DNA of 64,000 nucleotides from a virus (IMGVR_UViG_2541047680_000004), one strand, 5' to 3'; shown: positions 2,099 through 35,002, numbered from the stretch's first letter. Program-made: numbers and translations. Notes: a model not told the origin generated them from the letters alone.

Positions 2099-2556
2099 TT
2101 GCTCACCTCATAGATGACCGGTCTATGATGAGAGTCAGCTAAAGCGGCACGGAGTCGAGGATCGTGCACCAGCGCAGCGATAAGCAGATCGCCTTTATGC
2201 TCCGCTAATGTGCGCTTAATATGCTTCTCATAACTGGTGCCATTCGGTACGAGATGAAGCCAGTCGTAATCAACGCCAAAATCTTTCAGCCATCGTTTAG
2301 TGGGCGCTTCAAGAGTTTCAGAGCGGCTACTGATAAGCACCACTTCAGCCCCTGAGCGAGCAAAACCACGCAACATACGGCTGGTGGGGAAAATGAGTTC
2401 ATCACCGGCAATGAGCTGGCCTGCATCCGCGTCAGATACAGATTTACGATGGCTGGTATTTGCCAGCACACCTTCAATTTCGCATAAGACATACATACCT
2501 CTTGCCATATCACACCGCCACTGGAACCTTGATCCACGGTAGAGGGTCATAGCCAA
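2095..2556 (-). CDS. hypothetical protein in thyA-folA operon (start uncertain, possibly 2508)
   Basis: ORF overlaps thymidylate synthase 3' end by 46 nt if first Met is used; an internal Met at about 2508 would give a coupled start; no motif recognised. Confidence 0.4.
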   Translation of the reverse strand: MAMTLYRGSRFQWRCDMARGMYVLCEIEGVLANTSHRKSVSDADAGQLIAGDELIFPTSRMLRGFARSGAEVVLISSRSETLEAPTKRWLKDFGVDYDWLHLVPNGTSYEKHIKRTLAEHKGDLLIAALVHDPRLRAALADSHHRPVIYEVSK

Positions 2557-3640
2557 GAATCAGAATATCGTCCCATTTGAAATCATCCAGCTCAGACCAT
2601 TCATGAGGGAAAATAACGACCGGATCTGAATGCTCTGGAGCCTGTCGTTTCATTAGCTCACACACACCTTCCATGTGGTTGTTGTACAAATGCACGTCAA
2701 AGCCAAAATGTACAAATGCACCGGCCATGTGACCCGTAATCTTCGCGAGAAAATGAGTGAGAATGCCATAGCCAGCAATATTGAATGGCATACCAACAAA
2801 AGTGTCTACGCTACGCTGTACGAGGCAGGAGTTGAGGATGCGTTTGGGGATTCCAAGTTCATCCAGTTCAGTTTCAGTAACACTGCCGTCCATCTCCAGA
2901 TCGTATAGCATCTTGGTGTAGATAGACTCATAACCGAGGCGACTGTGTTGAAGACCAATGTCAGTTGCCATCGTTAAACGGGTTTCAAAATCAAGCTCAC
3001 GACTCCACAAAGAGAAGACAAAGTGGCAAGGTGGCAGTTTCATATCCTCAAGCTCGCCTACGTTCCATGCGTTAAGCATGATACGACGATCGGTGGGGTT
3101 CGTGCGCAGTGTATCGACAATACGCTGTAGCTGATCGATTTCACGGGACAGCACTACGCGATCTTCACTGATACCCAGGTATCCCTCGACTTTGTACCCG
3201 CGTTCACGGAAAGTATCGATCTTGCTCAGATATTCACTATGGCTCACGATGCGGGTATCTTCCCATCGACGCCACTGCTTACCGTAAACCGGCCCCAAAT
3301 CGCCATTCTCATCGGCCCATGCATCCCAAATCTTAACGCCGTTATCCTTGAGAAATTGGATGTTGCCCGTGCCTTTCAGATACCACTCAAGTTCGACAAG
3401 CAGTGGCTTAAGATTTACCGCCTTTCCAGAAATAAGCGGCACAGTCCCACCAGTAAGCATGTAGTAAGAGGGAACGTAGCAGGTGCTTAAAGTACCAGTG
3501 CCTGTGCGATCATCAGCCTGCACGCCGCTTTTAAGCACCGTCTCAATAACTTTTGCATACGATGCGTTTGTTACCTGACCGTTCGTATGCTCACGATTCA
3601 AAAGGAGTGACACAAAAACCTCACAAAGATAAGTAACCAC
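2510..3640 (-). CDS. thyA: thymidylate synthase (long form with insertion)
   Basis: DRTGTGT, YGKQWRRW and LPPCH (catalytic Cys) motifs; GTG start; 376 aa is longer than the roughly 264-aa bacterial enzyme. Confidence 0.85.
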   Translation of the reverse strand: MVTYLCEVFVSLLLNREHTNGQVTNASYAKVIETVLKSGVQADDRTGTGTLSTCYVPSYYMLTGGTVPLISGKAVNLKPLLVELEWYLKGTGNIQFLKDNGVKIWDAWADENGDLGPVYGKQWRRWEDTRIVSHSEYLSKIDTFRERGYKVEGYLGISEDRVVLSREIDQLQRIVDTLRTNPTDRRIMLNAWNVGELEDMKLPPCHFVFSLWSRELDFETRLTMATDIGLQHSRLGYESIYTKMLYDLEMDGSVTETELDELGIPKRILNSCLVQRSVDTFVGMPFNIAGYGILTHFLAKITGHMAGAFVHFGFDVHLYNNHMEGVCELMKRQAPEHSDPVVIFPHEWSELDDFKWDDILILGYDPLPWIKVPVAV

Positions 3641-22517: not shown

Positions 22518-22973
22518 TCAACGGGGAGTAATAAAGCGTTCAGAGCCTAATCGCTCTAATTCAACGATGGCCATCTTTGACGCCTGAACGATCATGTCTC
22601 GGCGATGCGAAAAGGCGGCGACAGCATGTTTGTATATGTCTGCGATGTGCCGTGCTTCATCCAACTTCTGCCGTTTAGACAGATACTGTGGGTTTGTTTT
22701 AACCTTAGCGTCCAGTACAGATTCGTTGAACTTAATGCCGTTCATACTCAAGTTCTTACGCTCTGTGTCGTATAGCTTTGCTTCAACAGCTTCAAGGTTA
22801 AGTTTTGCTTCTGCGACACTTCTTTCTGCATGGGCGAGTTTTGAGCCATATTCCATCAACAGGCGGGGTTGTCTACGCCAGACTTCTTCCAGATTGTCTC
22901 GGTCAAACTCGAGATCAGACATTATTTTCTCGTAAATATCGGCGATCATGCACATTTCCTTATCACTTATCAT
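22518..22973 (-). CDS. hypothetical protein
   Basis: 151-aa ORF, predicted helical; no motif recognised. Confidence 0.4.
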   Translation of the reverse strand: MISDKEMCMIADIYEKIMSDLEFDRDNLEEVWRRQPRLLMEYGSKLAHAERSVAEAKLNLEAVEAKLYDTERKNLSMNGIKFNESVLDAKVKTNPQYLSKRQKLDEARHIADIYKHAVAAFSHRRDMIVQASKMAIVELERLGSERFITPR

Positions 22974-23044
22974 TTTGTATTGATTATATCATTGTAATGA
23001 TGAGGCAATGAGCTTGAAGATAGGGGGGGGTGAGGGGATAAGGG

Positions 23045-23069
23045 AAAACATGGCCTTTATGGCCATGTT
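23045..23069 (-). terminator. rho-independent terminator
   Basis: aaacatggcc-ttta-tggccatgttt hairpin immediately downstream of the polymerase gene. Confidence 0.55.
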
Positions 23070-23076
23070 TATTGGA

Positions 23077-26000
23077 TCACGTCTTAATAGTTTCTGCTAC
23101 GTCGGCTAATATCGCTTCTAGTCGTTCTCCCTCTTCAGGTCTGAAGTAAAGAATGTTGGGGTTAAACCCGTAAAAGACAGTAACGTCAAGGTCTGGAAGA
23201 TACTCCTTCCTGCCGACCAAATCGGATGGCTTGTTTTTGTTGTTAAACAATGCCGTTGCCCGGCTGCCACACGTCAGCACATAGGTCGGACGCACCAGAT
23301 TGATCTCTTCACGTATAAAGTCGGTGAACTGGCCGATCTCGTCTTTGGTGTAGTCTTTTTCTTTGTCTTTAACCTTCTTGCAAACGCCTGTGACATAGAG
23401 ATCGCCCATGCGTAAATCTCCAGCCGTCAATAGCTTGGCCTTAAAGTCGTCGTATCCGTTCTCCATAAAGTAACCGGTTCGAGCATCATTGCCGTTCGCA
23501 TTGTCCAGAATGATCATGATTTTCGGCTTAATACCAATGCTGGGGCGGATTAGTTCATCACCTAAGCCCATTTCAGCCGCCATCCGCGTCATGAGTACGT
23601 TAATTTCAGCCGAACGTTTGGGGTTCATCTCAAACGGACGTGAGGCTTTAACTGCGTCTATGACAAGATTTCCCATCAATTCAGCCTGGTCGCGTAGGCG
23701 CTCTGGAGCAGTTGCTGGCAGACTACCTGGCTCGATGGATGCAAACGCCCCTACTTTTTGCAGCGATTCGCGCACTCGACTATTACAGGCACGTTTCTCG
23801 ACAGCTTCTTCGAATTGCGCCAGTGACTCGAATTTGCCGCCAACTTTTTCTCGCGCTCTCATGATGGCTTGGCAGCCATTCTCAGAACACCCCTTCACAG
23901 CAGAGAATGGCGCATACAGCACCTGGCTGCCATCTTCAAGCGTGCGGATCTCGATTCGGTTAGATGACACGTTAACGTCTGGTGGCAATACGCGAATGCC
24001 ATAGGTCAGCGCATCTTTAACCAGCCCCTGGTGTTTATCTTCGCCAAGAATAGTGAGAGCAGCAGCGAAAAACTCTGCGGGATAATGAGTTTTCAACCAC
24101 ATAGATTGATAACTGATTAAGGAGTAAGCAACAGAGTGTGATTTGTTGAACTGGTAGGCACCATTTTTTTCGAATGCGGTCCAGATCTCCTTCGCTTTCA
24201 TCTCTGATAGCCCTGGATGTGACGCTGTAACGCGTACTGCGTTTATAGGTAGTTTTGCGCCGTGCTCAAGTGCCTCTTCGACAGTTTTCAGAGTTCCGTC
24301 TTCGCATTTAAAATGTTCCGCACGGTGAATGCGCTGTGTAGTGCCATCTTCCAGCTCAACGTCTATCCAGCCAGCTTGAGCCTGAACGATGAACTTCTCG
24401 CCCATGCTCTTCATTTTTTCCATGTTCTTCTTACCGATTGCGGAACGCACAGCGTCAGCTTCAGCCATTGTGAAGCCGGCAAGCAATCGAGTCGCGTTCA
24501 TCGTCTGTTCCTGATAGAGAATCACGCCATTTGTTTCCGCGGTAAGTTCATCAAGAACGGGGTGTAATGATTCCGGCGTCATAAAGCCTTTGGCGACAGA
24601 AACATAGTCATCCAACATGCCTGATTGAATTGGCCCTGGCCGGAAGAGCGCAGTCGTAGCGACGACCGTTTTAAAGCTCATTGGCTCAATTCCACCACCT
24701 AAATCTTTAAGCAGCTTGCGCATTGGGCCTGATTCAAGCTGGAAAACACCTTGAGTATACCCAGCAGCAAAACCATCCAGCACCTTGCGATCTTCAAGAG
24801 AAATGGCATCAAGATTGATATCTTCACCTGTGTTCTCTTTTATGTAGCGTTTTGCACTATCGAGCAAATCGAGAGTTGCCAGGCCAAGCACGTCCAGCTT
24901 AATTAGGCCCATAGCCTCGCAGTAACGCTTGTCAAATGCGATACAACGCGCGTCACCACGGCGCTCAACCGGTGTACGTTCTGTCAGAGGAACACCTGCT
25001 ACGATCATCCCTGCCGCATGTCTACCAAAGCCACGCATAAGGCTTTGTAACTTGCAGGCTGCATTGAATGCATCAGGATATTTTGTTGCGTATTTGTCGA
25101 GACTTGCCAGTTGTTCGCGCAGCTCTTCCAATGGAAGGCTATCATCCTCGACGTTCTTCAGTTCTTTTGATACCGCCATATCTGCGGACTCCACACCATA
25201 AATACGAGCGGTATCACGTAGTGCAGAGGCTGCGCCCAGGTAGGTGAAGTTCGGAATGCCTGCAACGTAATCTTCGCCGTAGCGTTCATTCAGATACTCG
25301 ATCACTTCATGGCGACGTGCCTGGCTGAAGTCCAAATCCGCATCCGGCAAGTCGAGACGCTCAGGGTTGATGAAACGTTCAAACAGAAGACCGTGACGGA
25401 TTGGGTCGACGTTGGTTATGCCTATGCACCATGCCACCAGAGATCCAGCGGAGGAACCACGACCAGGCCCGACAGGAATGCCAGTTTCACGGCTGTGATT
25501 CATCAGATCGCGTACCATCAGGAAGTAACCACAAAATCCCAGGCGAGTCAGCGTGTCCATTTCGTACTTTAGCCGCTCAACATAAACCCTGTTCTCAGAA
25601 GCAGGTGGTGTGTAGCCAAACTCTTTTGTGGTAAGACGTTTACGCAGCCCTGCAACAGCCAGTTTCATAAGCGTTGCAGGCTCGTCGTCTGCCATCTTTG
25701 GCAGTGCTGGCGGCAATTCATGCCAGCGCCATGTGCAGGCATCGATAATGGTATCCTGCGTTGTTGAGGCCATTGCAGCTGTTACCGGCACATCCATGCG
25801 AACGGAGAAGGCTTTAAGCGCCTCAAGGAGATGGCGGCGACCATTGACGGCGTTATCTCGCTGGTGGGGGATACGCAGACGATGCGGCTGGTCGATTTTG
25901 ATGTTGTTCGTAACCATGTGCGCAATGTCTTTAATGTCTGCATCGTCGATCGATTCGTAATAAGCGGGATAGAACGCCACTGGCTCTATTTTCAATGCGC

Positions 26001-26595
26001 TGGCGACTTTCATCGCCCGGACGTTAATCTGGTCGTAGAATGGGGTAGGGTGCGGATAAACCACACTATAGAAGTTGTCTTTTCCACCCGCTGTAATCAG
26101 TGTGCTTATGATTTTTGCAAAATCGTTGCGTTGGAACACGCTACCGATGTCGGAAGTAAGCAGGATGATGTTGCCTTTGGCATATGTAGAAACCAACTGT
26201 TCGAGCGAGAGACGCGGTACAAAGTAGAACTGTTCTCGTGTGTTGGCCGCCGTCATTAGTTCGCAGATGTCGCGATATCCTTTCTCATTTTTAATTAGAG
26301 CGGTAAACGAGTAGTTACGTCCTCGCTCTAATGATTCCATACATCCCTTAGATTCTTTAGCAAGTTTAGCCCGGTGCTCGTATGTGGGATCATCAACGAT
26401 ATTTAGTTTCACACCACAAATAACCGCCATGTCGTCACCAGCGGCACGTTGTAGTGGAATAACACTCGCAATATTCATGCTATCTGCTGAAATTACAGCG
26501 GTGTAGCCAGCTTCTCTGGCAATCTTCACCGCGTTTTCTGCTTTTAAAGCCGACTCCCCAAGTGAGAAGTCAGTTCGAACCATCAGTGCCTTCAT
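23077..26595 (-). CDS. dnaE: DNA polymerase III alpha-like replicative polymerase (DnaE family)
   Basis: N-terminal PHP-like region and the GPGRGSSAGSLVAWCIGITNVDP ... LLFERFINPER signature of DnaE-family polymerases; 1172 aa. Confidence 0.85.
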   Translation of the reverse strand: MKALMVRTDFSLGESALKAENAVKIAREAGYTAVISADSMNIASVIPLQRAAGDDMAVICGVKLNIVDDPTYEHRAKLAKESKGCMESLERGRNYSFTALIKNEKGYRDICELMTAANTREQFYFVPRLSLEQLVSTYAKGNIILLTSDIGSVFQRNDFAKIISTLITAGGKDNFYSVVYPHPTPFYDQINVRAMKVASALKIEPVAFYPAYYESIDDADIKDIAHMVTNNIKIDQPHRLRIPHQRDNAVNGRRHLLEALKAFSVRMDVPVTAAMASTTQDTIIDACTWRWHELPPALPKMADDEPATLMKLAVAGLRKRLTTKEFGYTPPASENRVYVERLKYEMDTLTRLGFCGYFLMVRDLMNHSRETGIPVGPGRGSSAGSLVAWCIGITNVDPIRHGLLFERFINPERLDLPDADLDFSQARRHEVIEYLNERYGEDYVAGIPNFTYLGAASALRDTARIYGVESADMAVSKELKNVEDDSLPLEELREQLASLDKYATKYPDAFNAACKLQSLMRGFGRHAAGMIVAGVPLTERTPVERRGDARCIAFDKRYCEAMGLIKLDVLGLATLDLLDSAKRYIKENTGEDINLDAISLEDRKVLDGFAAGYTQGVFQLESGPMRKLLKDLGGGIEPMSFKTVVATTALFRPGPIQSGMLDDYVSVAKGFMTPESLHPVLDELTAETNGVILYQEQTMNATRLLAGFTMAEADAVRSAIGKKNMEKMKSMGEKFIVQAQAGWIDVELEDGTTQRIHRAEHFKCEDGTLKTVEEALEHGAKLPINAVRVTASHPGLSEMKAKEIWTAFEKNGAYQFNKSHSVAYSLISYQSMWLKTHYPAEFFAAALTILGEDKHQGLVKDALTYGIRVLPPDVNVSSNRIEIRTLEDGSQVLYAPFSAVKGCSENGCQAIMRAREKVGGKFESLAQFEEAVEKRACNSRVRESLQKVGAFASIEPGSLPATAPERLRDQAELMGNLVIDAVKASRPFEMNPKRSAEINVLMTRMAAEMGLGDELIRPSIGIKPKIMIILDNANGNDARTGYFMENGYDDFKAKLLTAGDLRMGDLYVTGVCKKVKDKEKDYTKDEIGQFTDFIREEINLVRPTYVLTCGSRATALFNNKNKPSDLVGRKEYLPDLDVTVFYGFNPNILYFRPEEGERLEAILADVAETIKT

Positions 26596-26776
26596 GTGTT
26601 TTTACCTTTCTGGTTTTTTTTGATTTTGTCATTTGGGAAGCCTACGAACTTCCCATGCATCGAAATCGCAACTTCTTTTGCTGATTGGTGACAATCAGGC
26701 TTGTCTGGACACACCAGACAAGCCTGACCAGTTTCAGAAGCAGCGATAAGAGAGCCGAAACATCCTTTACGCACGA

Positions 26777-28012
26777 TCAACCAAATATTTTTTGAACAAC
26801 TTCACGAGCCGCTTGTGCAGAAGCTGAAGGGAGTTTGTTAATGAAAGAACGCTCAATACCTGTCACAAAGTCGCCTCGCATCATTCCAATCTTGGCCGAC
26901 AACAAAAGTTCACGAGGGCCAATTGGCTGACTGATAAGGTGTTCTTCGTATCCATCGCGAACGATACCGGCAAACTTAACCATCTTTTCTGCGTATTCAT
27001 CCACGATACCGGCATTTATCAACATGTTGATCTCTGCCTCTTTGCTCATGTATTTCACATTCGAAACGATGCCAAAACGCGAAAAGTTCGCGGCGTTCTG
27101 GATGTTTGTACCCTGGTACAAGCCGGTTTCATCACCAGATCCGTTCGTGTTGCCAGTGCCAATGAAAGCAAACCGTTCATGCGGAGTAATGCGACGCCAT
27201 TCTGGAGTTGCCTCTTTGATGACCAACGCTTCACCTTCCAGCACTGGCTGATACACGCCAAGAATTTGTGGAAACGCAAAGTCGTATTCATCCGCGAGGT
27301 AAACCCAGCCATGCTTCATTGCGAGCGCAAGCAAGCCAGGTTCGAAATACGTAGAGCCATCACGCGCCAGAATTTGCCCCGTAACATGTGCCTCTTCCAT
27401 TGATGCTGTATGTTGGGCACGGATCAACGGACGATTGAGCAAAGCACATAGCTGTGTAGGCAATGACGATTTGCCTGTTCCTGCATGACCCCACAAATAG
27501 CCAGGTATGCCAAGTTCAAGCATCATGAAAATATCTTTGATCAGTTCGAAGTCGCCATATACGTAGCCTTTCTTCACTTCGGGAACGAACTCTGGATACG
27601 GCGTATTGACGTTGACGCTAACCATGAGCGGCGTCCCACGTTTTGTTCCGAGTTCTTCCACCGTTACGTTTAGCAGTTCGTGAGCTGCGACCAGATCTGT
27701 CTTGTACTCAACTGTGCCTGTGTAGCCAGGGCTACTGGTCAAGCCAGAAGATTTGGCCATTTCGCTTTTTTGCTCGGCACGTTTAGCTTGAATTGCATCA
27801 AGTGCCTTTTTCGATAGCGTTGGTTCATCTGGAAACTGCGTTGTGTACATTTTCAGTACGGTGTCAGGATCGGCATCTTTTACTGACTCAGGAATGCCCT
27901 CGCAATTACCATTGGCTACATGGGACTTAAAATAGTGAAATGATTTGCCGCACCACTTGCAAACAAGGTAATCAGAAGGATTTTTTTCATTTTGCAGTGC
28001 AGTAGTCGTCAT
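26777..28012 (-). CDS. CobS/MoxR-like AAA+ ATPase
   Basis: Walker A GHAGTGKSS, Walker B VYLADEYD; N-terminal Cys/His cluster; followed upstream by a vWA-domain partner. Confidence 0.65.
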   Translation of the reverse strand: MTTTALQNEKNPSDYLVCKWCGKSFHYFKSHVANGNCEGIPESVKDADPDTVLKMYTTQFPDEPTLSKKALDAIQAKRAEQKSEMAKSSGLTSSPGYTGTVEYKTDLVAAHELLNVTVEELGTKRGTPLMVSVNVNTPYPEFVPEVKKGYVYGDFELIKDIFMMLELGIPGYLWGHAGTGKSSLPTQLCALLNRPLIRAQHTASMEEAHVTGQILARDGSTYFEPGLLALAMKHGWVYLADEYDFAFPQILGVYQPVLEGEALVIKEATPEWRRITPHERFAFIGTGNTNGSGDETGLYQGTNIQNAANFSRFGIVSNVKYMSKEAEINMLINAGIVDEYAEKMVKFAGIVRDGYEEHLISQPIGPRELLLSAKIGMMRGDFVTGIERSFINKLPSASAQAAREVVQKIFG

Positions 28013-28107
28013 GCGTTTTTCCTTTGTTCTCTAATGAGCGTTCAACTTCTTATATAAATATATCATTATCTATCGTAAGTGGTTACTTATCGTTGAGGCT
28101 GTTTTGT

Positions 28108-30216
28108 TCACTTTAAAATGATACGAGATAGTTCAGTAACTACAGATGAACCAAGACTATCAACGCTCGTTACCAGGGCATGATTTGAGTAAAATCTTTC
28201 CGGTGCGTCAGTCATGATGCCAATTGCCATCAAATCAATATCAGTCTGCGTTTCAATTTGCTTCGCAACTGAACGCAAATGAGCGTCAAAACCTCTCCCA
28301 ACAGCCCACGGCGCGCCATCACTCAGAACAAGCATGATCTTCCTGTCCTCCAAGCGACCGGAAAATAACGATGCAAGGCTGGCTATGCTTTCACCATCCA
28401 CGTTATTAAGAAGTGGGAATGTGTAGCCTACGCACCCCATACGTGAGCGAACTTCGCGAGAATTTACCTTTTCATTCCAATTTTTGATGATAGGTAGCAT
28501 TAAAGATTCAAAGCGAGAGAACTCATACTTGACAGCCTTAAGTTCTCCTGCCGCCATATGACTACCAAATGTAGTGAAGCCGGTGATAATGTTGGGAACA
28601 TTTATTCGATCAAGGGCATCTGCGATGGTATATGCACTTGCAAGAGCCAATTGTATCGTTATACCACTCATTGAACCTGATAAATCAATCACTTGTTGAA
28701 CACAGGCGTTAACGGCTTTAGATTCTTCTTTTTTACGAAACACGCGATCATCATTCATTGCTAATCTGTAGATACTAGAACCATGAATGCGCCCCCGACG
28801 CTGGCCCGGTATAAACTGAACTCTGTTTCTGCTTGCTATTGCTCGCTCCAGGTCTTTTGCCAGCGTCGACGAAACACCTGACGAAAGATGCTTTTCAATA
28901 TATTTGTCGAAGAGCTGGTTGCCTTCAGGAACGATGCGATAGCGGCTGATTGGATATCCTCCTAAATCAATATCGGAGAATGTTTTAATAAGCCGTTTGA
29001 TATGGGCTTCTGCCTGATCAATCGAGCCGATGAAGTCGTATGAGCGATTGTATGGCCTGTATTCGCTTTTCGAGCTTTCTGTTAACTCGCTTTTAATCGT
29101 TTCGGATAGAGCATCTTCTGTCATGCCTCCGACTTCATCTTCTATGCTATCCAGCTCCTCTAAAGCCTCTTCCAGACTCATTTTTGACGGAGTTGGAATA
29201 TCTGAAGAGCCGTCTTCTGTCGTTTTTCTTTTTTCGTGGTCAGCGATAAATGATTCTGACACCGCGTTATCAGAAGCATCAGAATCTGATACCTCTTTAT
29301 CATTTTCTGTATCATCGAATATTGTTTCTGATGATTCAGAATTATCTGAATCATCACTGTCGTTATTATCATGTTTGTGCTTACTGTGTGATTCTGATTT
29401 GATAGATTTGTGATTATCTAACGCTGAGGGTGTCTCATGATCTTCGTTGTCTTCATTGTTTTCTCCAGAGGCATCCGTCTGGTCAGCGTCTGAAGGATCG
29501 GAAGTTTTTCCCGGAGCTGACTCCTTACCTTTGCTTTCACTTTCAGTGTCTTTGAGGATCTTAGCTATGGTCGCAGCCACCTTTACACAATCCTCGGTGC
29601 AAGACATGTTACGCACGGCCACATCGATACCATGTTCTTTTAATAATGAAATTGGTTTCTCAATGACAGGCCAATATTCATCCATGAAATCTACGAACGG
29701 TGCTTGGCCATCCCAGGCTCTTACAACCGGACAGAGAAAGAAGTTTAGAAAAAGCGCGCGCTGATCTTTGCCACAATAAGCAATAGCCTCTGAAGCCTTT
29801 GGTTTAAAGACTTTTTCGATTATAAGGCGCTGAGTTGCCATCAGATTACGTCTTGTTCCGTTAAAGACCTGACCCATTTTTCGCTCGATGAACACGTCTT
29901 CTAAGGCATTCCATAGCGACCAGGAAGGAACGCGTCCTTTTTCTCTCATTTTGTTGGACACACGAATATCGGTAAACAAAATGTGAGCAACCTCATGATC
30001 GAGAAATCCGCGCACAGCATTCATCAATGCCGGTGTTGCGTTATCCGGGATTGATGGGATGTTTACGAGAATTGGCTCTCCATCATCGTTATAGCGTACA
30101 TAAGCGTCGTCCCCTCGTTCTGCAACAGGGATGTTTTTACCTGAAAGGAGAGCGACTACTCGTTTTACACTGTCACGGAAGTCCTGAACCTCTTTGATAG
30201 AACGTTTTTTAGACAT
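28108..30216 (-). CDS. CobT-like von Willebrand factor A domain protein
   Basis: Central highly acidic Ser/Asp/Glu-rich low-complexity region and C-terminal vWA domain with MIDAS motif DLSGSMSG. Confidence 0.65.
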   Translation of the reverse strand: MSKKRSIKEVQDFRDSVKRVVALLSGKNIPVAERGDDAYVRYNDDGEPILVNIPSIPDNATPALMNAVRGFLDHEVAHILFTDIRVSNKMREKGRVPSWSLWNALEDVFIERKMGQVFNGTRRNLMATQRLIIEKVFKPKASEAIAYCGKDQRALFLNFFLCPVVRAWDGQAPFVDFMDEYWPVIEKPISLLKEHGIDVAVRNMSCTEDCVKVAATIAKILKDTESESKGKESAPGKTSDPSDADQTDASGENNEDNEDHETPSALDNHKSIKSESHSKHKHDNNDSDDSDNSESSETIFDDTENDKEVSDSDASDNAVSESFIADHEKRKTTEDGSSDIPTPSKMSLEEALEELDSIEDEVGGMTEDALSETIKSELTESSKSEYRPYNRSYDFIGSIDQAEAHIKRLIKTFSDIDLGGYPISRYRIVPEGNQLFDKYIEKHLSSGVSSTLAKDLERAIASRNRVQFIPGQRRGRIHGSSIYRLAMNDDRVFRKKEESKAVNACVQQVIDLSGSMSGITIQLALASAYTIADALDRINVPNIITGFTTFGSHMAAGELKAVKYEFSRFESLMLPIIKNWNEKVNSREVRSRMGCVGYTFPLLNNVDGESIASLASLFSGRLEDRKIMLVLSDGAPWAVGRGFDAHLRSVAKQIETQTDIDLMAIGIMTDAPERFYSNHALVTSVDSLGSSVVTELSRIILK

Positions 30217-30314: not shown

Positions 30315-30527
30315 TTAACAGATTCTGACGGCTAAAGACCCGGAGCCGGTATTGAGAAGCGTGAAGCGTTTGTTGTTAAGTTCGAATATAAAGCCAGTTG
30401 TGTCATTCACACCAACCTGAATCTGCTCATTCGGTAGATCGGTGAGGATGTCAGCTACACACTCATCAGCTAATTTCTGTACGTGTCCGATCTCAAGAGC
30501 GATTAGGCTGGAAATAGTGGTGTTCAT
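30315..30527 (-). CDS. hypothetical protein
   Basis: 70-aa ORF upstream of the CobT-like gene. Confidence 0.3.
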   Translation of the reverse strand: MNTTISSLIALEIGHVQKLADECVADILTDLPNEQIQVGVNDTTGFIFELNNKRFTLLNTGSGSLAVRIC

Positions 30528-30778
30528 TCAATCAATCCATTCTAACTTATACTATGGTAAGGAATACTACTAAAATTTGTATCAATACTGAATACATTCA
30601 TATCATATGCAAGTTAATTTTCTTACCTATTTTGGGCTAGTTTTTCTCCGTGCAATGGCCTTTAACCGGTCTTTTAAGTGCCTATCGAAAAAAATGATAA
30701 TAGCTTTACAACCCTAACCTTTGATGTAATATCGGTAAGCACTTACCAGAGAGAATTGAACGCGCAAAGGTTGTAACC

Positions 30779-31165
30779 ATGTCTGATAACAAGATTGAAT
30801 TTATAGAAAGTCGCTACGCTGCTTTTATCGCAGGGTTGATTGAATCCTCACCTATGAGCCAGTCCCAGATAGCCAAAACAATTGGGTATAAAAACGCCAA
30901 CAACCTTTCTTTAATTAAAAGCGGCAAAATTCCTTTGCCTATCGATAAGGTTCGTCCGCTGGCGCTGGCACTGGGTATTGAGCCAAGTCGTCTTATGATG
31001 ATGGTGCTGGAAGAACGCCAACCCGAACTCGCAGCATTTTTATACAAAGAAGGCACTGCTCCTCTTAACGAGGACGAAAAACAGGTTCTTGCTGCATATA
31101 ACGAGCGATTCGGTAAAGAGAAAGGCGCATCACAAAAGGTTGTTGAGGCCATAAAGTCTCTATGA
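30779..31165 (+). CDS. helix-turn-helix transcriptional regulator (XRE/Cro-CI-like)
   Basis: SQSQIAKTIGYKNANNLSLIKSGK HTH motif; plus-strand gene with palindromic motif A (ggtaagcacttacc) about 40 nt upstream. Confidence 0.6.
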   Translation: MSDNKIEFIESRYAAFIAGLIESSPMSQSQIAKTIGYKNANNLSLIKSGKIPLPIDKVRPLALALGIEPSRLMMMVLEERQPELAAFLYKEGTAPLNEDEKQVLAAYNERFGKEKGASQKVVEAIKSL

Positions 31166-32263
31166 AAAATTTACACGAATAAGCTCTGTTGATAGACGAT
31201 CTCCCTTAAATTTGTGGTCAATTTCGTCTAAATCCGGTTGCTCTACGATTGATGCGATGTACGTCGAGAAACTTTCTAAGGCGTCTCGCATCTCGTCCAT
31301 ATAATCGTGCCGGTCGTAGACCCGATCTATCCCCTCAAGACTGTGGTTCATGATTTTACGTGATACCTCCTGGCTTATGCCTAATGCTGGGAAGTAACTA
31401 CGCGCAGTACGGCGCAAATCTCGGGGTGTAAATGGCTCAAGCTCCATCAGTTCTGGTCGTTCCAGAATACGACGTAATGCCTGGGCTATTGCCACTTTAG
31501 ACATAGGAAGGTCTTTCCCGATTTTTTTATTCGAAGGCACGAGCCACTGGCTGTCTTTACCGTATTCGAACAACTCTTCAATGCATGTGCGCATTAATGT
31601 GCTTAAAGGCAGCGAATGCTCACGTGCTGACTTGTTTCTCTTGCCTTGATTCCAAACCCCACGCTTAAGATTGAACTCACTTTTTTTAGCCCGCAGTACT
31701 TCGTCAGGTCGTCTTGCTGATACAAGACACAGTCTGGCCGCCCATTTTGTACCAGCGCACACATTGAAGTAGTCCCATATATTCCAGAACACCCATACCT
31801 CTGCGTCAGTCAGCTTCCGCTCGCGGGGCGTGGGCTTTGCGCCACCGGCAACTTTGTTAAGTGACATATCGTTTAACGGTGACACGTCTATCATCCCCTG
31901 GAAGGCGCACCAGCTAAGGAACTGCTTCATCAGAGAGAAAACGCGGCGGCCCATAACAATTTTGCCATCCAGTATTAGTGGGTTGACCAGTTGGTTCACC
32001 ATGAACCTATTAATGTCACTTACTTTTACATCGGCAATGTGCGGCAAAACATGTATCAAAATACAATGAACAGCGATCTCTGGCCGACGTCTGGTTATCA
32101 GCAGAGATAAGCGAGTGAATAACAGGAATGCGTCCGAGAATCTCATGTCATTGCTGACCTGGGAGATCATAACGGCCTGCATTTGAGATGCTCTTTCGAG
32201 ATACTCTATCGCCTCTTTTGAGGTGTTCTCCGCAGCGCGTGCTCTGTCAAAGCTATTTTTCAT
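31160..32263 (-). CDS. tyrosine site-specific recombinase (integrase/Cre/Xer family)
   Basis: C-terminal catalytic signature: R..PDEVLR, HSLP, PRDLRRTARSY (box II), IMNHS, VYDRHDY (nucleophile Tyr). Confidence 0.75.
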   Translation of the reverse strand: MKNSFDRARAAENTSKEAIEYLERASQMQAVMISQVSNDMRFSDAFLLFTRLSLLITRRRPEIAVHCILIHVLPHIADVKVSDINRFMVNQLVNPLILDGKIVMGRRVFSLMKQFLSWCAFQGMIDVSPLNDMSLNKVAGGAKPTPRERKLTDAEVWVFWNIWDYFNVCAGTKWAARLCLVSARRPDEVLRAKKSEFNLKRGVWNQGKRNKSAREHSLPLSTLMRTCIEELFEYGKDSQWLVPSNKKIGKDLPMSKVAIAQALRRILERPELMELEPFTPRDLRRTARSYFPALGISQEVSRKIMNHSLEGIDRVYDRHDYMDEMRDALESFSTYIASIVEQPDLDEIDHKFKGDRLSTELIRVNFS

Positions 32264-32361
32264 ATGACAATCACCGAGTTACGCCGATGCACTGTATAAG
32301 TAAACAGTATATTAGGCATAGATTCTTATAGGATCAAGAGTAAAAGTAACTCATTTTCAGC

Positions 32362-32396
32362 AATGATTCCATACATAGTAGGTATGGAATCATTTT
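32362..32396. promoter_or_regulatory. lox/dif-like candidate recombination site: 13-bp inverted arms with 7-bp spacer
   Basis: aatgattccatac-atagtag-gtatggaatcatt, perfect inverted repeat about 100 bp upstream of the tyrosine recombinase gene. Confidence 0.5.
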
Positions 32397-32473
32397 GACG
32401 TTGTTTTTTGAATTTTAAGGGAAATGGGAGTGAGTTTGGTGGGAATAAAAACGGCTCCTGTGAGCCGTTAAAA

Positions 32474-32719
32474 TCAGAGGGTGCTGACGTATGCAGCCAG
32501 TTCTGTGTATCCGCCAATCGGCTGGCCTTCGATCAGCACCTGGGGGATAGTCTCTACCGGTTTACCAACAATTTCACTTAGTTTTTCCTTGTCGATACCG
32601 GCAGTGGTGATGTCGATGTACTCATAATCACCGTAGCCATGTCCCTTTAGTTGCTTCGCTAGCTCGACCGCACGTTTGCAGTATGAGCAGTTATCTCGTC
32701 CGTAGATAGTGATCGTCAT
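32474..32719 (-). CDS. glutaredoxin / NrdH-like redoxin
   Basis: MTITIYGRDNCSYCKRA with CxxC active site near the N-terminus and thioredoxin-fold length; start taken at the internal Met with GAGG RBS. Confidence 0.7.
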   Translation of the reverse strand: MTITIYGRDNCSYCKRAVELAKQLKGHGYGDYEYIDITTAGIDKEKLSEIVGKPVETIPQVLIEGQPIGGYTELAAYVSTL

Positions 32720-32893
32720 TGTTACCTCATAGAATTGATATGCAACTTTACTCACAAAGAAGATAGGTATGTGCATACTTATCTTTGCAGTCTGCATTAT
32801 AAAGCTATTAAAGCCTCGATCAATCTATTAATTAAGGCATTGTTTGGTTAACATTACCCTAATATTTTATAGTTAGTAGAGTGAAATACATAC

Positions 32894-34156
32894 ATGCCTT
32901 TTTTAATTTTCATTATTATACTACTGCTCACCGTGATTTTTTGGGATTGGGTTGTTTTAAATGGTCAAATTGTTGGAACATTGGCTACAGCATTTGCTTT
33001 TATAGCAACAGCATGGAATGCCTACGAAGCGAGAAAAAGTGCAAAAGCAGCTTTTTCAGCCCTTCAATTAACAACAGAATCATTGTTCGAAATGCGAAAG
33101 AGTGCATTTAAACAATGGTTTGATTCCTTATTAAATCAACATGATGAGCTATGTCTTCTTGCAAAACAAATTATCGATAAACGCAAAATTAATTTAAACA
33201 GCGATGAGTTACATAGACTATATTACCCATTGGTAAAACAGCATGAGGTAATACAGTATGTGAAGCATATTATTAATATTTTTGAGTATGTGGATAGTTC
33301 ATTTTATATTGATGGGGAATGTCTAAAGGAAAAAAGAGCGTATGTGTCACAATTAATTTTCAAAATCCCACCTCAGATGAAGTTGATCATTGCTATCTTT
33401 GGATTAAAGATCGATTATTGTGAACATATTAATTCGGGAAAACTGTGTTGTTTATTAAATAAATATGATTTTTTCAATGATGAAATATTTTTTGATGATG
33501 CTTATTCAGATATGCCTTATCTGGATGCATTCATAAACCTTAGATTCAACAAAATATTCAAATCTCGAATGATAAATTATTTTGATAATATCATTAAAAG
33601 TTATTATGTTCCATCGGACGTTAAAAGGGACTGGATGTTTCGAGACCCAAAGCTCGTACCGTCGGTTCTTATGAATTATAAAACTCCTTGTTCTCCTATA
33701 ATTAATGATTACTTTGAGAAGTTGCCTTTACATGTAAGAAACTACTTTGAGGAACTACTTAAAACCGCGAATGATAGAGTTACTCATTTTGACGTTTACA
33801 TCCCACGCCTTATTGGTTGTTCAATCGTGCAACATTACGAAGATGTGCCTTCCGAAAAAAACAGGTTAAATGACAGGAATGATGTAATAGCTATGGCTGA
33901 AGATTACATCGAGAAAAGAAAATCTAATCAACTAGATTACATACTTGAAGATATATACTTCAAGAGTGACGAAGATATAATCCCAGGCCACCATTTGATT
34001 GTGGCATTTGATGACTATGAATTTAAATTATCACTCATTAAGATAAATGAGAATAAAGATAGCGATAATCTTTTAAATCGAATTTATACTGAATCCAGTA
34101 GCATGGTTAAAGAATATAAGCGCGAAATATTAAAACTGGGCGACTATGTAAAGTAA
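32894..34156 (+). CDS. AT-rich membrane-anchored hypothetical protein (candidate accessory/defence-type gene)
   Basis: 420-aa ORF on the opposite strand to its neighbours; two N-terminal hydrophobic helices; sequence visibly more AT-rich than flanking genes; own terminator downstream. Confidence 0.5.
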   Translation: MPFLIFIIILLLTVIFWDWVVLNGQIVGTLATAFAFIATAWNAYEARKSAKAAFSALQLTTESLFEMRKSAFKQWFDSLLNQHDELCLLAKQIIDKRKINLNSDELHRLYYPLVKQHEVIQYVKHIINIFEYVDSSFYIDGECLKEKRAYVSQLIFKIPPQMKLIIAIFGLKIDYCEHINSGKLCCLLNKYDFFNDEIFFDDAYSDMPYLDAFINLRFNKIFKSRMINYFDNIIKSYYVPSDVKRDWMFRDPKLVPSVLMNYKTPCSPIINDYFEKLPLHVRNYFEELLKTANDRVTHFDVYIPRLIGCSIVQHYEDVPSEKNRLNDRNDVIAMAEDYIEKRKSNQLDYILEDIYFKSDEDIIPGHHLIVAFDDYEFKLSLIKINENKDSDNLLNRIYTESSSMVKEYKREILKLGDYVK

Positions 34157-34174
34157 ATTGCACTGTTCAACAAA

Positions 34175-34200
34175 AAAGGGGCCGAAGCCCCTTTGAATTT
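34175..34200 (+). terminator. rho-independent terminator
   Basis: aaggggc-cgaa-gcccctt hairpin followed by tgaatttt. Confidence 0.55.
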
Positions 34201-34348: not shown

Positions 34349-34435
34349 TGGCGGAGAGTAATGGAATCGAACCATCATCGTTTGCACAATGGGACGGTTT
34401 TCAAGACCGCTTGAGCACCATGCTCCCTACTCTCC
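34349..34435 (-). tRNA. tRNA-Ser (anticodon UGA), long variable arm
   Basis: Manual fold of the reverse complement: acceptor ggagagt/actctcc, anticodon loop cuUGAaa, T-arm ggttcgattcc, encoded CCA; about 87 nt. Confidence 0.6.
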
Positions 34436-34755
34436 AGCTATTGTGATGGTCGGTGCTGAACTCCGACACAGGGTTGTAGCAAGCCCCGCAAAGCGCGCAC
34501 TACTGTAGTTGCGGCACATCAGCCTGTGCATTCATCACAATGGTAAGATCACTACCTTTCGACCAGTCATTGTGCACATGAACGACGATTAACCGTAATG
34601 ATATTATCGTTGTGTTGTGAAGCCAGATGCTTATCTTCTGGTTGCTTCAAAGAGCTGCACTTCCTCACAACGGTAAGAGCACTGGTCTGACTCTATCGAT
34701 TTACGGCCTTGTGGGTCAGTATCGCCGATTCGCCCAATGCTCTTACCTGTTGTGT

Positions 34756-34831
34756 TGGTGCCGGTTAACGGACTTGAACCGCTGGCCATTCGCTTACAAA
34801 ACGACTGCTCTACCAACTGAGCTAAACCGGC
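34756..34831 (-). tRNA. tRNA-Thr (anticodon UGU)
   Basis: Reverse complement gccggtttagctcagttggtagagc ... ttUGUaa ... ggttcaagtcc ... aaccggcacca; one mismatch at the top of the anticodon stem. Confidence 0.55.
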
Positions 34832-34835
34832 AATT

Positions 34836-34922
34836 TGGTGGGGAGTGATGGAGTCGAACCACCCGAGTCGCCATGACAGTAGATTTACAGTCTACACCGC
34901 TACCTCTACGGACTAACTCCCC
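34836..34922 (-). tRNA. tRNA-Tyr (anticodon GUA), long variable arm
   Basis: Reverse complement ggggagt ... actGUAaatc ... ggttcgactcc ... actccccacca. Confidence 0.6.
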
Positions 34923-34927
34923 TAAAT

Positions 34928-35002
34928 TGGCGATGGTGGGTGGATTCGAACCACCGACCAGTTGGTTAACAGCCAACTGCTCTACCGCTGAGCTACACCA
35001 TC
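34928..35002 (-). tRNA. tRNA-Asn (anticodon GUU)
   Basis: Reverse complement gatggtgtagctcagcggtagagc ... ctGUUaa ... ggttcgaatcc ... caccatcgcca. Confidence 0.65.

What the first reader, a model, noticed from the sequence alone, without database searches (positions are those of the whole stretch)
26777..30216. CobS/CobT-like AAA+ ATPase and vWA pair immediately upstream of the DnaE-type polymerase
The 411-aa AAA+ protein (Walker A GHAGTGKSS, N-terminal Cys/His cluster) and the 702-aa protein with an extremely acidic Ser/Asp/Glu-rich linker plus a MIDAS-containing vWA domain form the MoxR-vWA / CobS-CobT arrangement. Such pairs act as chaperone-like remodelling machines; their position in one transcription unit with the replicative polymerase suggests a role in replisome assembly or metal insertion rather than cobalamin synthesis. 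Function in phages is to my knowledge not established.
Basis: partly seen in the sequence, partly recalled or inferred. Interest (0 to 1): 0.5.

Follow-up and report, generated by a model that had tools for sequence, protein, structure and literature searches.

The report
Phage CobS/CobT motor with protease motif
This phage-plasmid of E. coli carries the well-known phage version of the CobS/CobT ATPase pair, which cannot be making vitamin B12 here and, unlike the bacterial enzyme subunit, keeps an intact zinc-protease motif, so it is probably an ATP-driven protein remodeller or protease whose target is unknown.

Summary
Two minus-strand genes at exactly the stated coordinates encode a 411-aa AAA+ protein and a 702-aa protein with an acidic linker and a MIDAS vWA domain. 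Both are true homologues of the cobaltochelatase subunits CobS and CobT. The window is an SSU5-like phage-plasmid of E. coli, and the pair has long been annotated in such elements as "porphyrin biosynthesis". A published survey already reports cobST clusters across tailed viruses, so the gene pair is not new.

What I add:
- No CobN partner exists in the window, the RNR is class I, and both proteins score far below the chelatase equivalog cut-offs. A chelatase role here is very unlikely.
- The CobT-like N-domain models confidently as an M48-like zincin. It keeps HExxH plus downstream Glu residues in 143 of 146 full-length diverse relatives and in four of five phage lineages read directly. All seven cellular CobT-type proteins lack the motif.
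- The CobS-like protein has a lineage-specific N-terminal zinc-finger-like extension.
- The order cobT-cobS-Cys4 gene-dnaE is kept throughout this ~110-kb phage lineage. Other lineages place the pair beside family B or A polymerase genes, or away from annotated replication genes.

Best reading: an ATP-driven, MIDAS-guided remodeller/protease with an unknown client. The replisome link is suggestive only.

The parts
28108..30216 (-). CobT-like gene (702 aa): zincin-like N-domain, acidic disordered linker, 'shaft' segment, and a vWA domain with MIDAS
   Evidence: Pfam CobT_C 7e-82 and CobT 1.8e-27. PHROG 1576 2e-299. PDB CobT 9uka/21vt 1e-12 to 1e-15.
29557..30216 (-). CobT-like N-domain (aa 1-220) with an M48-like zincin fold. 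The HEVAH motif (aa 74-78) and N103/E106/D107/E111 are encoded at 29884-29997.
29017..29556 (-). Acidic Ser/Asp/Glu-rich linker (aa 221-400)
   Evidence: Composition is 29% D+E, 18% S and 9% K+R. It varies in length and does not align between relatives. Cellular CobT has an equivalent disordered linker.
28708..28833 (-). 'Shaft' equivalent (aa 462-503), which precedes the vWA fold
   Evidence: It aligns with the Brucella CobT shaft region Q373-R413, which enters the CobS ring. It is among the best conserved stretches between phage lineages.
28111..28707 (-). vWA domain with MIDAS residues D511, S513, S515 and D633
   Evidence: Alignment to the crystal structure 21vt and to 9uka. These residues are invariant in alignment A1.
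26777..28012 (-). CobS-like AAA+ ATPase gene (411 aa)
   Evidence: AAA_5 2e-15. PHROG 249 2e-106. PDB CobS 9ujv 1.8e-25 over aa 142-411. Walker A G175-S182, Walker B D241/E242, sensor-1 N288, Arg finger R312 and sensor-2 R367 are all present.
27590..28012 (-). Lineage-specific N-terminal extension of the CobS-like protein (aa 1-141). It contains a C-x2-C-x4-H-x4-H zinc-finger-like motif encoded at 27902-27961.
   Evidence: Cellular CobS lacks it; the alignment to cellular CobS starts at aa 142. A C-x2-[C/D]-x4-H-x4-[H/Y] motif is found in 36 of 40 diverged homologues. No Pfam match.
28013..28107 (-). 95-nt cobT-cobS spacer
   Evidence: No terminator-like site on the minus strand. Sequence read.
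26592..26780 (-). 62-aa Cys4 ORF between cobS and dnaE, with 4-nt overlaps at both ends
   Evidence: PHROG 6337 1e-36, and the N-terminal part of PHROG 3616. PHROG 3616 proteins occupy the same position in phages nickie and RHEph10. G6, C7, F8, G9, C21, C24 and C30 are invariant. Overlaps shown.
23077..26595 (-). DnaE-type polymerase (1172 aa) with a C-terminal UDG-like domain; the downstream neighbour in the same block
   Evidence: Pfam PHP, DNA_pol3_alpha, finger and HHH_6. TIGR00758 2.8e-7 at aa 1053-1168.
30315..30527 (-). 70-aa ORF (PHROG 2627), the first gene of the leftward block upstream of cobT
   Evidence: PHROG 2627 9e-41. Also annotated in phage Cyrano.

Best explanation
The two genes encode the phage-type CobS/CobT machine. 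It consists of a MoxR-class AAA+ hexameric motor (CobS-like) and an adaptor (CobT-like).

By homology with the solved cobaltochelatase motor, the adaptor would work as follows:
- Its N-domain docks on the small subdomain of the ATPase.
- Its 'shaft' inserts into the ring pore.
- Its vWA/MIDAS face holds a client protein.

In the bacterial enzyme the client is CobN, and the CobT N-domain is a catalytically dead M48-like fold. Here there is no CobN, and the N-domain keeps a complete gluzincin site (HExxH plus Glu on the next helix).

The most likely mechanism is therefore ATP-driven remodelling of a protein client captured at the MIDAS site, coupled to zinc-dependent cleavage by the N-domain. 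The N-terminal zinc-finger extension of the ATPase would serve as a lineage-specific recognition or localisation module. The genes are expressed with the replication and recombination genes from the leftward block that starts opposite the HTH repressor gene.

Shown: homology, the motor and MIDAS residues, the motif and its conservation, the fold, absence of CobN in the window, and gene arrangement. Inferred: complex formation, proteolysis, timing of expression, and the client, which is unknown.
For: - Homology to solved CobS and CobT, with all ATPase catalytic residues, the shaft and the MIDAS residues retained.
- Both proteins fail the chelatase equivalog cut-offs: 84.9 against 558.55 bits, and 70 against 759.05 bits.
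- The window has no CobN-sized candidate; the two ORFs above 1400 aa are tail fibre proteins. Its RNR is class I, NrdA-like.
- E. coli needs about 30 heterologous genes, including cobN, cobS and cobT, to make B12 (10.1101/394338).
- HE[VI][AG]H is present in 143 of 146 full-length representatives clustered at 50% identity. N-x2-E-x4-E follows about 20-24 residues after the second His in most of them.
- The motif is also present in RHEph10, cyanophage S-ShM2, vibriophage JSF27, Gordonia phage Woes and roseophage CRP-810.
- It is absent from all seven cellular CobT-type proteins read. A profile-profile alignment places the phage HEVAH opposite the cellular SMALR.
Against: - There are no experimental data.
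- No Pfam peptidase model matches.
- Phage nickie and 3 of 146 representatives have lost HExxH while keeping everything else. Catalysis is therefore dispensable in some lineages, and the N-domain also has a scaffold role.
- An HExxH site could bind metal for a non-proteolytic purpose.
- The client is unknown.
- In hosts that have CobN (cyanobacteria, haloarchaea), the published 'hijack host CobN' idea is not excluded by anything done here.
Confidence: 0.5

Rival explanations
1. Maturation or metal-insertion chaperone for the element's own replication enzymes. Candidates are the DnaE PHP domain, the Cys4 protein or the class I RNR. It would act like NorQ/NorD, CoxD/CoxE or CbbQ/CbbO act on their clients, without proteolysis.
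For: - The pair shares codon-overlapping genes with the Cys4 ORF and dnaE.
- The order cobT-cobS-(PHROG 3616)-dnaE is kept at about 35% identity in 38 of 38 loci of the lineage.
- The pair also lies next to clamp and clamp-loader genes in cyanophage, and upstream of a helicase and PolA in ICP2-like phage.
- MoxR-vWA pairs are generally dedicated maturation factors (PMC7159879).
Against: - Within-lineage synteny is inherited, so it is not independent evidence.
- The polymerase family differs between lineages (C, B, A), so no single replicase can be the client.
- Woes and CRP-810 show no annotated replication gene nearby.
- The idea does not explain why the zincin motif is kept in 98% of relatives.
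Confidence: 0.2
2. Host-takeover or anti-defence protease. The same machine would have host proteins as clients, for example immunity or replication factors. This is comparable in spirit to the zincin domain of the antirestriction protein ArdC.
For: - The pair occurs widely in unrelated tailed viruses of bacteria and archaea (PMC8651126).
- In CRP-810 it sits among early-region genes at the genome end.
- The N-terminal extensions on the ATPase vary between lineages, as expected for changing targets.
Against: - Neither protein has a significant match in PADLOC, which models defence proteins rather than anti-defence ones.
- No target is known.
- The very conserved sequence and fixed position in the replication module of the ~110-kb lineage are unlike fast-evolving counter-defence genes.
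Confidence: 0.15
3. Auxiliary cobaltochelatase subunits that hijack a host CobN to raise B12 supply. This is the published hypothesis for viral cobST.
For: - Both proteins are true homologues of CobS and CobT.
- The hypothesis is stated in PMC8651126.
- Databases label the genes 'porphyrin/cobalamin biosynthesis'.
Against: - The window has no CobN.
- E. coli lacks the de novo pathway, and Salmonella uses the anaerobic route (10.1101/394338).
- The element's RNR is class I, not the B12-dependent class II.
- Both scores are far below the equivalog cut-offs.
- CobS_N (PF12556) is absent.
- The same genes are core to more than 1000 enterobacterial, Yersinia and Acinetobacter phage-plasmids.
Confidence: 0.04
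4. Motor-adaptor pair in which the HExxH site is a conserved relic or a structural metal site, with no proteolysis and no defined enzymatic output.
For: - The motif has been lost in nickie, in 3 of 146 representatives and in all cellular CobT read, while the rest of the protein is kept.
- In the solved complex the N-domain acts as a docking module for CobS and CobN.
Against: - H74, E75, H78, E106, D107 and E111 are six of only 19 invariant columns in a set with 44% mean column identity.
- Retention in 98% of relatives at 30-58% identity argues for selection on the site itself.
Confidence: 0.11

Closest known systems
Aerobic cobaltochelatase motor CobS-CobT of CobNST (Brucella melitensis cryo-EM and crystal structures 9ujv, 9uka, 21vt, 21vu; preprint 10.64898/2026.07.21.739949)
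   Same: - The AAA+ module has Walker A and B, sensor-1, the Arg finger and sensor-2.
- CobT has the same three-part build: an M48-like N-domain, a disordered acidic linker, and a shaft followed by a vWA domain with MIDAS.
- Sequence homology is significant for both proteins.
   Different: - There is no CobN client.
- Scores are far below the equivalog cut-offs.
- The CobS-like protein has a ~140-aa N-terminal extension with a zinc-finger-like motif and lacks CobS_N.
- The CobT-like N-domain keeps HExxH and the Glu residues, where cellular CobT has SMALR-type degenerate residues.
- Gene order here is cobT then cobS, whereas the cellular loci read have cobS then cobT. Woes and CRP-810 also have the ATPase first, so order is not diagnostic.
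Phage cobS / 'peptidase' (cobT-like) genes of T4-like cyanophages, ICP2-like vibriophages, haloarchaeal tailed viruses and SSU5/pHCM2/pMT1-type phage-plasmids (PHROGs 249, 1576, 459, 17276)
   Same: This is the same family. The window proteins are members of PHROG 249 and PHROG 1576, 97% identical at the DNA level to Escherichia phages PhiR41_1, CMS-2020a and Cyrano, and 80% to SSU5. The zincin motif is shared with the cyanophage, vibriophage, actinophage and roseophage versions.
   Different: Nothing essential differs. The N-terminal zinc-finger extension of the ATPase and the tight coupling to a Cys4 gene and dnaE are specific to the ~110-kb lineage.
MoxR-class AAA+ / vWA chaperone pairs (RavA-ViaA, CbbQ-CbbO, NorQ-NorD, CoxD-CoxE) and Mg-chelatase BchI-BchD
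   Same: An AAA_5-type ATPase is encoded next to a vWA/MIDAS partner with an acidic linker. Weaker sequence matches to CbbQ and NorQ structures support this. The general logic is that a client is captured by the vWA domain and remodelled by the ATPase (PMC7159879).
   Different: These partners carry no zincin domain, and their clients are known metabolic enzymes. Here the adaptor carries a putative peptidase and the client is unknown.
M48 zinc metalloproteases (Ste24/ZMPSTE24, BepA, BlaR1 sensor domain)
   Different: No Pfam M48 match. The protein is soluble and has no membrane segments. It is fused to a vWA domain and coupled to an AAA+ motor.

Membership tests
Aerobic cobaltochelatase CobNST (CobS and CobT subunits) | CobS: AAA+ module homologous to CobS, with a complete set of catalytic residues | tested here: met
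   PDB 9ujv matches at 1.8e-25 over aa 142-411. G175-S182, D241/E242, N288, R312 and R367 align with the residues named in the preprint.
Aerobic cobaltochelatase CobNST (CobS and CobT subunits) | Score above the curated equivalog cut-offs TIGR01650 (CobS) and TIGR01651 (CobT) | tested here: not met
   84.9 against 558.55 bits, and 70 against 759.05 bits.
Aerobic cobaltochelatase CobNST (CobS and CobT subunits) | CobS N-terminal signature (Pfam CobS_N, PF12556) | tested here: not met
   No hit at E<=0.01 for the whole protein or at E<=5 for aa 1-152.
Aerobic cobaltochelatase CobNST (CobS and CobT subunits) | CobT: N-domain, acidic linker, shaft and vWA domain with MIDAS | tested here: met
   Pfam CobT 1.8e-27 and CobT_C 7e-82. 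The PDB alignment covers the shaft and MIDAS.
Aerobic cobaltochelatase CobNST (CobS and CobT subunits) | A CobN catalytic subunit, and its corrin substrate pathway, in the same genome or host | tested here: not met
   No candidate in the 64-kb window; the ORFs above 1400 aa are tail fibre proteins. The host was not searched here. E. coli's lack of the pathway rests on 10.1101/394338 and on established knowledge.
MoxR-class AAA+ / vWA pairs | AAA_5 (PF07728) ATPase above the gathering score, encoded next to a vWA protein with a MIDAS motif | tested here: met
   AAA_5 scores 57.4 bits against a cut-off of 22. The partner has D511-x-S-x-S and D633. The two genes are adjacent with a 95-nt gap.
MoxR-class AAA+ / vWA pairs | Helix-2 insert and pre-sensor-1 hairpin in the ATPase | not tested
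   The alignment to CobS spans these regions, but I did not model the ATPase.
Phage CobS / CobT-like families (PHROG 249, PHROG 1576) | Full-length match to the family profiles | tested here: met
   PHROG 249 matches at 2e-106 over aa 11-410. PHROG 1576 matches at 2e-299 over aa 5-702.
Gluzincin (M48-like) metallopeptidases | HExxH on the active-site helix and a Glu ligand on the following helix | tested here: met
   H74-E75-x-x-H78 lies in helix 62-81. E106, D107 and E111 lie in helix 96-117. All six are invariant in 22 sequences.
Gluzincin (M48-like) metallopeptidases | Fold similarity to solved M48 peptidases | tested here: met
Gluzincin (M48-like) metallopeptidases | Match to a curated peptidase profile (Pfam Peptidase_M48 or a related family) | tested here: not met
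   No peptidase family in the Pfam scans. There is only a weak match to PHROG 459 'peptidase', which is the cyanophage CobT-like family.
Gluzincin (M48-like) metallopeptidases | Zinc binding and peptide-bond hydrolysis | not testable with these tools
   This needs biochemistry.

The most novel reading that the evidence does not exclude
Phage 'CobT' proteins are active zinc proteases driven by a CobS-type AAA+ ring and aimed by a MIDAS site. This would be a previously unrecognised class of ATP-dependent proteolytic or remodelling machine, spread through tailed viruses of bacteria and archaea. The motor of the bacterial cobaltochelatase would then be its pseudo-protease relative. In this lineage the machine would act on a component of DNA replication or on a host factor that blocks it.
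Probability: 0.3. Interest if true: 0.75.

Novelty: new variant of a known kind. Interest (0 to 1): 0.45.

Why it matters
cobS is a core gene of marine T4-like cyanophages. The cobST pair is also core to more than a thousand clinically relevant enterobacterial, Yersinia and Acinetobacter phage-plasmids. Even so, its role has stayed an acknowledged unknown, papered over by 'porphyrin/cobalamin biosynthesis' labels and by confusion between two CobS/CobT nomenclatures.

An E. coli element cannot use the pair for B12. The virus-borne adaptor, unlike the chelatase subunit, keeps a protease active site. Together these turn the puzzle into a directly testable hypothesis in a tractable host, using point mutants, zinc content, substrate traps and replication phenotypes. 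They also caution against counting viral cobS and cobT as auxiliary metabolic genes in virome surveys.

Tried and rejected
- **Foldseek against the PDB.** The N-domain model gave no significant hit. The afdb50 library was unavailable.
- **Locus searches.** The search for related loci with the single CobS-like protein returned only relatives at 78-100% identity. The run with the N-domain alignment used the motif itself as a search pattern, so I did not count its HExxH tally as evidence. I used those loci only for synteny.
- **Structure prediction.** I repeated it without them.
- **Word-indexed homologue search.** It saturated with SSU5-type sequences.
- **Promoter and terminator scan.** The counts were not above the shuffled expectation, so it neither supports nor refutes an operon.
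- **PADLOC.** Only a DrmE match at E = 0.0014, which I treat as insignificant.
- **Pfam on the CobS N-terminal extension and the 62-aa ORF.** Nothing.
- **Weak profile hit to the anti-CRISPR AcrIIA26.** It covers only the 48-residue 'LNxVEDxFIE' stretch (E = 0.002). I treat it as a possible motif coincidence and did not pursue it.
- **Gene order as a phage-versus-cell discriminator.** I considered cobT-then-cobS and rejected it, because Woes and CRP-810 have the ATPase first.
- **Methylobacterium locus.** The longest ORF was in the wrong frame, so I discarded it.
Full report
**What is there.** The region holds two minus-strand ORFs at exactly the reported coordinates: 28108-30216 (702 aa) and 26777-28012 (411 aa), separated by 95 nt.
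- The 411-aa protein has Walker A GHAGTGKS at aa 175-182. It also has an N-terminal C18-x2-C21-x4-H26-x4-H31-x5-C37 cluster.
- The 702-aa protein has a linker (aa 221-400) with 29% Asp+Glu and 18% Ser. Its MIDAS motif is D511-x-S513-x-S515, plus D633.
- Profile matches leave no doubt that the genes are real:
  - AAA_5 scores 2e-15, CobT_C 7e-82 and the CobT N-terminal family 1.8e-27.
  - PHROG 249 ('porphyrin biosynthesis') scores 2e-106 and PHROG 1576 scores 2e-299.
  - A 62-aa ORF (26592-26780) lies between the ATPase gene and dnaE. Its start overlaps the cobS stop and its stop overlaps the dnaE start.

**Where it comes from.** The 10.5 kb around the genes is 96-98% identical to Escherichia phages PhiR41_1, CMS-2020a and Cyrano, and 80% identical to Salmonella phage SSU5.
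- The window is therefore an SSU5-type phage-plasmid of E. coli.
- The CobT-like protein is found in 1020 plasmid records of about 100-115 kb. These come from Klebsiella, Escherichia, Acinetobacter, Enterobacter, Yersinia, Salmonella and others.
- Its closest cluster alone holds 3307 member sequences, labelled 'cobalamin biosynthesis protein CobT', 'cobaltochelatase CobT-related' or 'porphyrin biosynthesis protein'.
- Around the pair lie a DnaB-like helicase, primase, ligase, integrase and an HTH regulator on one side. On the other lie DnaE, a UvsY-like protein, a gp32-like SSB, an exonuclease and a RecA/UvsX-like protein. Farther off are a class I RNR, SbcC and tail fibre genes.

**Homology to the chelatase motor is real and detailed.**
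- Residues 142-411 of the ATPase align with solved Brucella CobS at 1.8e-25. Residues 439-697 of the partner align with solved CobT at 1e-12 to 1e-15.
- I used the residue assignments of the CobSTN cryo-EM preprint (10.64898/2026.07.21.739949). On that basis the phage ATPase has Walker B D241/E242, sensor-1 N288, Arg finger R312 and sensor-2 R367. All five positions are invariant in five divergent phage sequences.
- The partner keeps the segment equivalent to the 'shaft' that enters the CobS ring (aa 462-503), and it keeps the MIDAS residues.
- The acidic linker is also a feature of cellular CobT.
- So the working parts of a CobS-CobT type motor and adaptor are all present.

**It is not a cobaltochelatase here.**
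- Both proteins fall far below the curated equivalog cut-offs: 84.9 against 558.55 bits, and 70 against 759.05 bits.
- The window has no CobN-like gene. The only ORFs above 1400 aa are tail fibre proteins.
- The RNR is NrdA-like class I, not the B12-dependent class II.
- E. coli does not make corrins de novo. Engineering it to do so took about 30 heterologous genes, including cobN, cobS and cobT. Salmonella uses the anaerobic route (10.1101/394338).
- The published idea for viral cobST clusters is that they hijack a host CobN (PMC8651126). That idea therefore has no partner or substrate in this host.

**The new point is an intact zincin site.** The preprint notes that cellular CobT_N has an M48C peptidase-like fold and uses it to dock on CobS and CobN. 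The terms 'zinc' and 'HExxH' do not occur in its text.
- *Motif in the window protein.* The corresponding domain carries H74-E-V-A-H78 and, one helix later, N103, E106, D107 and E111.
- *Structure model.* An AlphaFold model built on 22 diverse relatives is confident (pLDDT 92.1, pTM 0.88). Its topology matches the description of CobT_N: a helix, a three-stranded sheet, then a helical bundle.
- *Fold search.*
  - ArdC, the minigluzincins and Spartan rank lower.
  - These scores are modest, and Foldseek against the PDB found nothing.
- *Conservation.*
  - A full phmmer scan of 1.84 billion cluster representatives found 5029 relatives.
  - Among the best 150 (30-58% identity for full-length members), 143 of 146 full-length proteins keep HE[VI][AG]H. 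N-x2-E-x4-E follows about 20-24 residues later in most of them.
  - The six motif residues are six of only 19 invariant columns in the 22-sequence alignment.
- *Other phage lineages.* The motif is also present in the CobT-like proteins of Rhizobium phage RHEph10, T4-like cyanophage S-ShM2 (where the gene is annotated 'peptidase'), ICP2-like vibriophage JSF27, Gordonia phage Woes and roseophage CRP-810.
- *Losses.* It has been lost in Pseudomonas phage nickie (SEISK) and in three representatives.
- *Cellular proteins.*
  - All seven cellular proteins I read lack it.
  - Four are canonical CobT, from Sinorhizobium, Cereibacter, Pandoraea and Sphingomonas. Three are a second cellular clade, from Caballeronia, Cupriavidus and Photobacterium.
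  - A profile-profile alignment puts the phage GFLDHEVAHILFTD opposite the cellular GLGDSMALRKACHD.
- *Prior work.*
  - I found no paper in the searchable library that draws this distinction or proposes proteolysis.
  - One paper calls the cyanophage 'peptidase' label a mistake.

**The ATPase has its own lineage-specific addition.**
- Residues 1-141 have no counterpart in cellular CobS and no Pfam match.
- They start with a zinc-finger-like motif. It recurs as C-x2-[C/D]-x4-H-x4-[H/Y] in 36 of 40 homologues at 34-67% identity.
- Other phage lineages carry different and longer N-terminal extensions. In Woes the Walker A motif is at residue 279, and in CRP-810 it is at residue 367.
- Variable N-terminal modules on an otherwise conserved AAA+ core are what one expects of recognition or localisation domains. 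This is inference.

**Context and the replisome idea.**
- *Local arrangement.*
  - The genes orf70, cobT, cobS, orf62 and dnaE, then the UvsY-like, gp32-like, exonuclease and RecA-like genes, all run leftward. They start from a divergent region facing the HTH gene.
  - No terminator-like site lies between them on that strand. The scan as a whole was not above chance.
- *The 62-aa ORF.* It is the Cys4 N-terminal module (C7, C21, C24 and C30 invariant) of PHROG 3616. That family is a ~180-aa protein found at the same position in nickie and RHEph10.
- *Synteny within the lineage.*
  - In 38 of 38 diverged viral contigs long enough to judge, the order is DnaB, primase, (ligase), cobT, cobS, 0.5-2.4 kb of small genes, dnaE, then uvsY and gp32. 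DnaE identity across these is about 35%.
  - That is deep conservation, but within one syntenic lineage, so it is not independent evidence.
- *Outside the lineage.*
  - In cyanophage S-ShM2 the order is cobT-like, nrdC, cobS, then one ORF and the gp45 clamp, with gp44 and gp62 following.
  - In JSF27 the pair lies 2.6 kb upstream of a helicase and PolA.
  - In Woes and CRP-810 no replication gene is annotated within 7 kb.
- *Conclusion.* The association is thus with replication-module or early genes in three of five lineages, across polymerase families C, B and A. It is not an association with DnaE as such.

**Most likely mechanism.**
1. A CobS-like hexamer binds the CobT-like adaptor through the N-domain and the shaft.
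2. ATP turnover moves the adaptor.
3. A client held at the MIDAS face, where CobN sits in the chelatase, is remodelled and probably cleaved by the zincin N-domain.

I put this at about 0.5. That the pair is not a chelatase in this element I hold with much higher confidence. That the client belongs to the replisome I hold at about 0.2. Arguments against proteolysis are the lack of any curated peptidase profile match, the modest structural scores, the occasional loss of the motif, and the absence of experiments.

**Verdict.** The gene pair is a long-annotated member of a known phage family, so the finding as stated is ordinary. What raises the interest is the clean split between motif-bearing viral adaptors and motif-less chelatase subunits. 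That split makes the old question of what viral cobS and cobT do testable in E. coli.

Noticed in passing
window 23077-23598 (-), aa ~1027-1171 of DnaE: The DnaE-type polymerase ends in a UDG-superfamily-like domain. TIGR00758 family-4 UDG scores 2.8e-7, and Pfam UDG scores 6e-4, below its cut-off. The RHEph10 DnaE annotation also mentions 'uracil-DNA glycosylase-like'. A polymerase-UDG fusion is conserved in this phage lineage.
   Followed up: partly
window 26592-26780 (-): The 62-aa ORF between cobS and dnaE is a real, conserved gene. It is the Cys4 N-terminal module (GCFG...C-x2-C-x5-C) of PHROG 3616. In phages nickie and RHEph10 that family is a ~180-aa protein at the same position. Its function is unknown.
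   Followed up: partly
L001 (Escherichia phage Cyrano) 18588-22027; paper PMC11288001: There is a nomenclature collision. The Cyrano record calls these genes 'cobalamin synthetase' and 'dimethylbenzimidazole phosphoribosyltransferase', which are the Salmonella-nomenclature CobS and CobT and are unrelated enzymes. The CRP-810 paper describes viral cobS and cobT with those functions too.
   Followed up: yes
window 34349-35002 (-): A cluster of four tRNA genes (Ser-tga, Thr-tgt, Tyr-gta, Asn-gtt). The Cyrano record annotates only three (Ser, Thr, Asn).
   Followed up: partly
window 32000-34200; ORF 32894-34156 (+): A low-GC stretch (0.36 against about 0.46) holds a 420-aa plus-strand ORF with no Pfam match. 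It looks like acquired cargo between the glutaredoxin gene and the tRNA cluster.
   Followed up: partly
window 22973-23077 versus L001 13204-14052: Phage Cyrano carries a hicAB toxin-antitoxin pair between uvsY and dnaE. This window has only about 100 nt there, so the site is a variable insertion point.
   Followed up: no
window 30528-32263: An integrase (31160-32263, minus) and an HTH regulator (30779-31165, plus) sit between the ligase and cobT in SSU5-type elements but not in phage nickie. The leftward replication block begins at the divergent region facing the HTH gene.
   Followed up: partly
L150 (Agrobacterium tumefaciens pAtCG920) 1646-3124: An unannotated 493-aa ORF joins a TIR-like N-terminus (FLSYVRADD...) to a CobT_C-type vWA domain with DNSGS. 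It lies between a DUF262 gene and a TIR-domain gene, in what looks like a defence-type island.
   Followed up: no
PDB 9zq6_B (AcrIIA26) versus aa ~95-140 of the CobT-like protein: The N-domain profile gives a weak hit (E = 0.002, 48 residues) to the anti-CRISPR AcrIIA26 over the 'LNxVEDxFIE' helix. This may be a motif coincidence.
   Followed up: no
L082 (Xanthomonas phage JGB6) 6899-9651: The record is fragmented into short CDSs. Pieces that match the CobS-like and CobT-like proteins are labelled 'DNA polymerase III subunit alpha'.
   Followed up: no
L146 4209-5768 (Gordonia phage Woes); L147 1827-3680 (roseophage CRP-810): The AAA+ partners of CobT-like proteins in other phage lineages carry long, unrelated N-terminal extensions. 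Walker A is at residue 279 of 519 in Woes, whose N-terminus is Cys-rich, and at residue 367 of 617 in CRP-810.
   Followed up: partly
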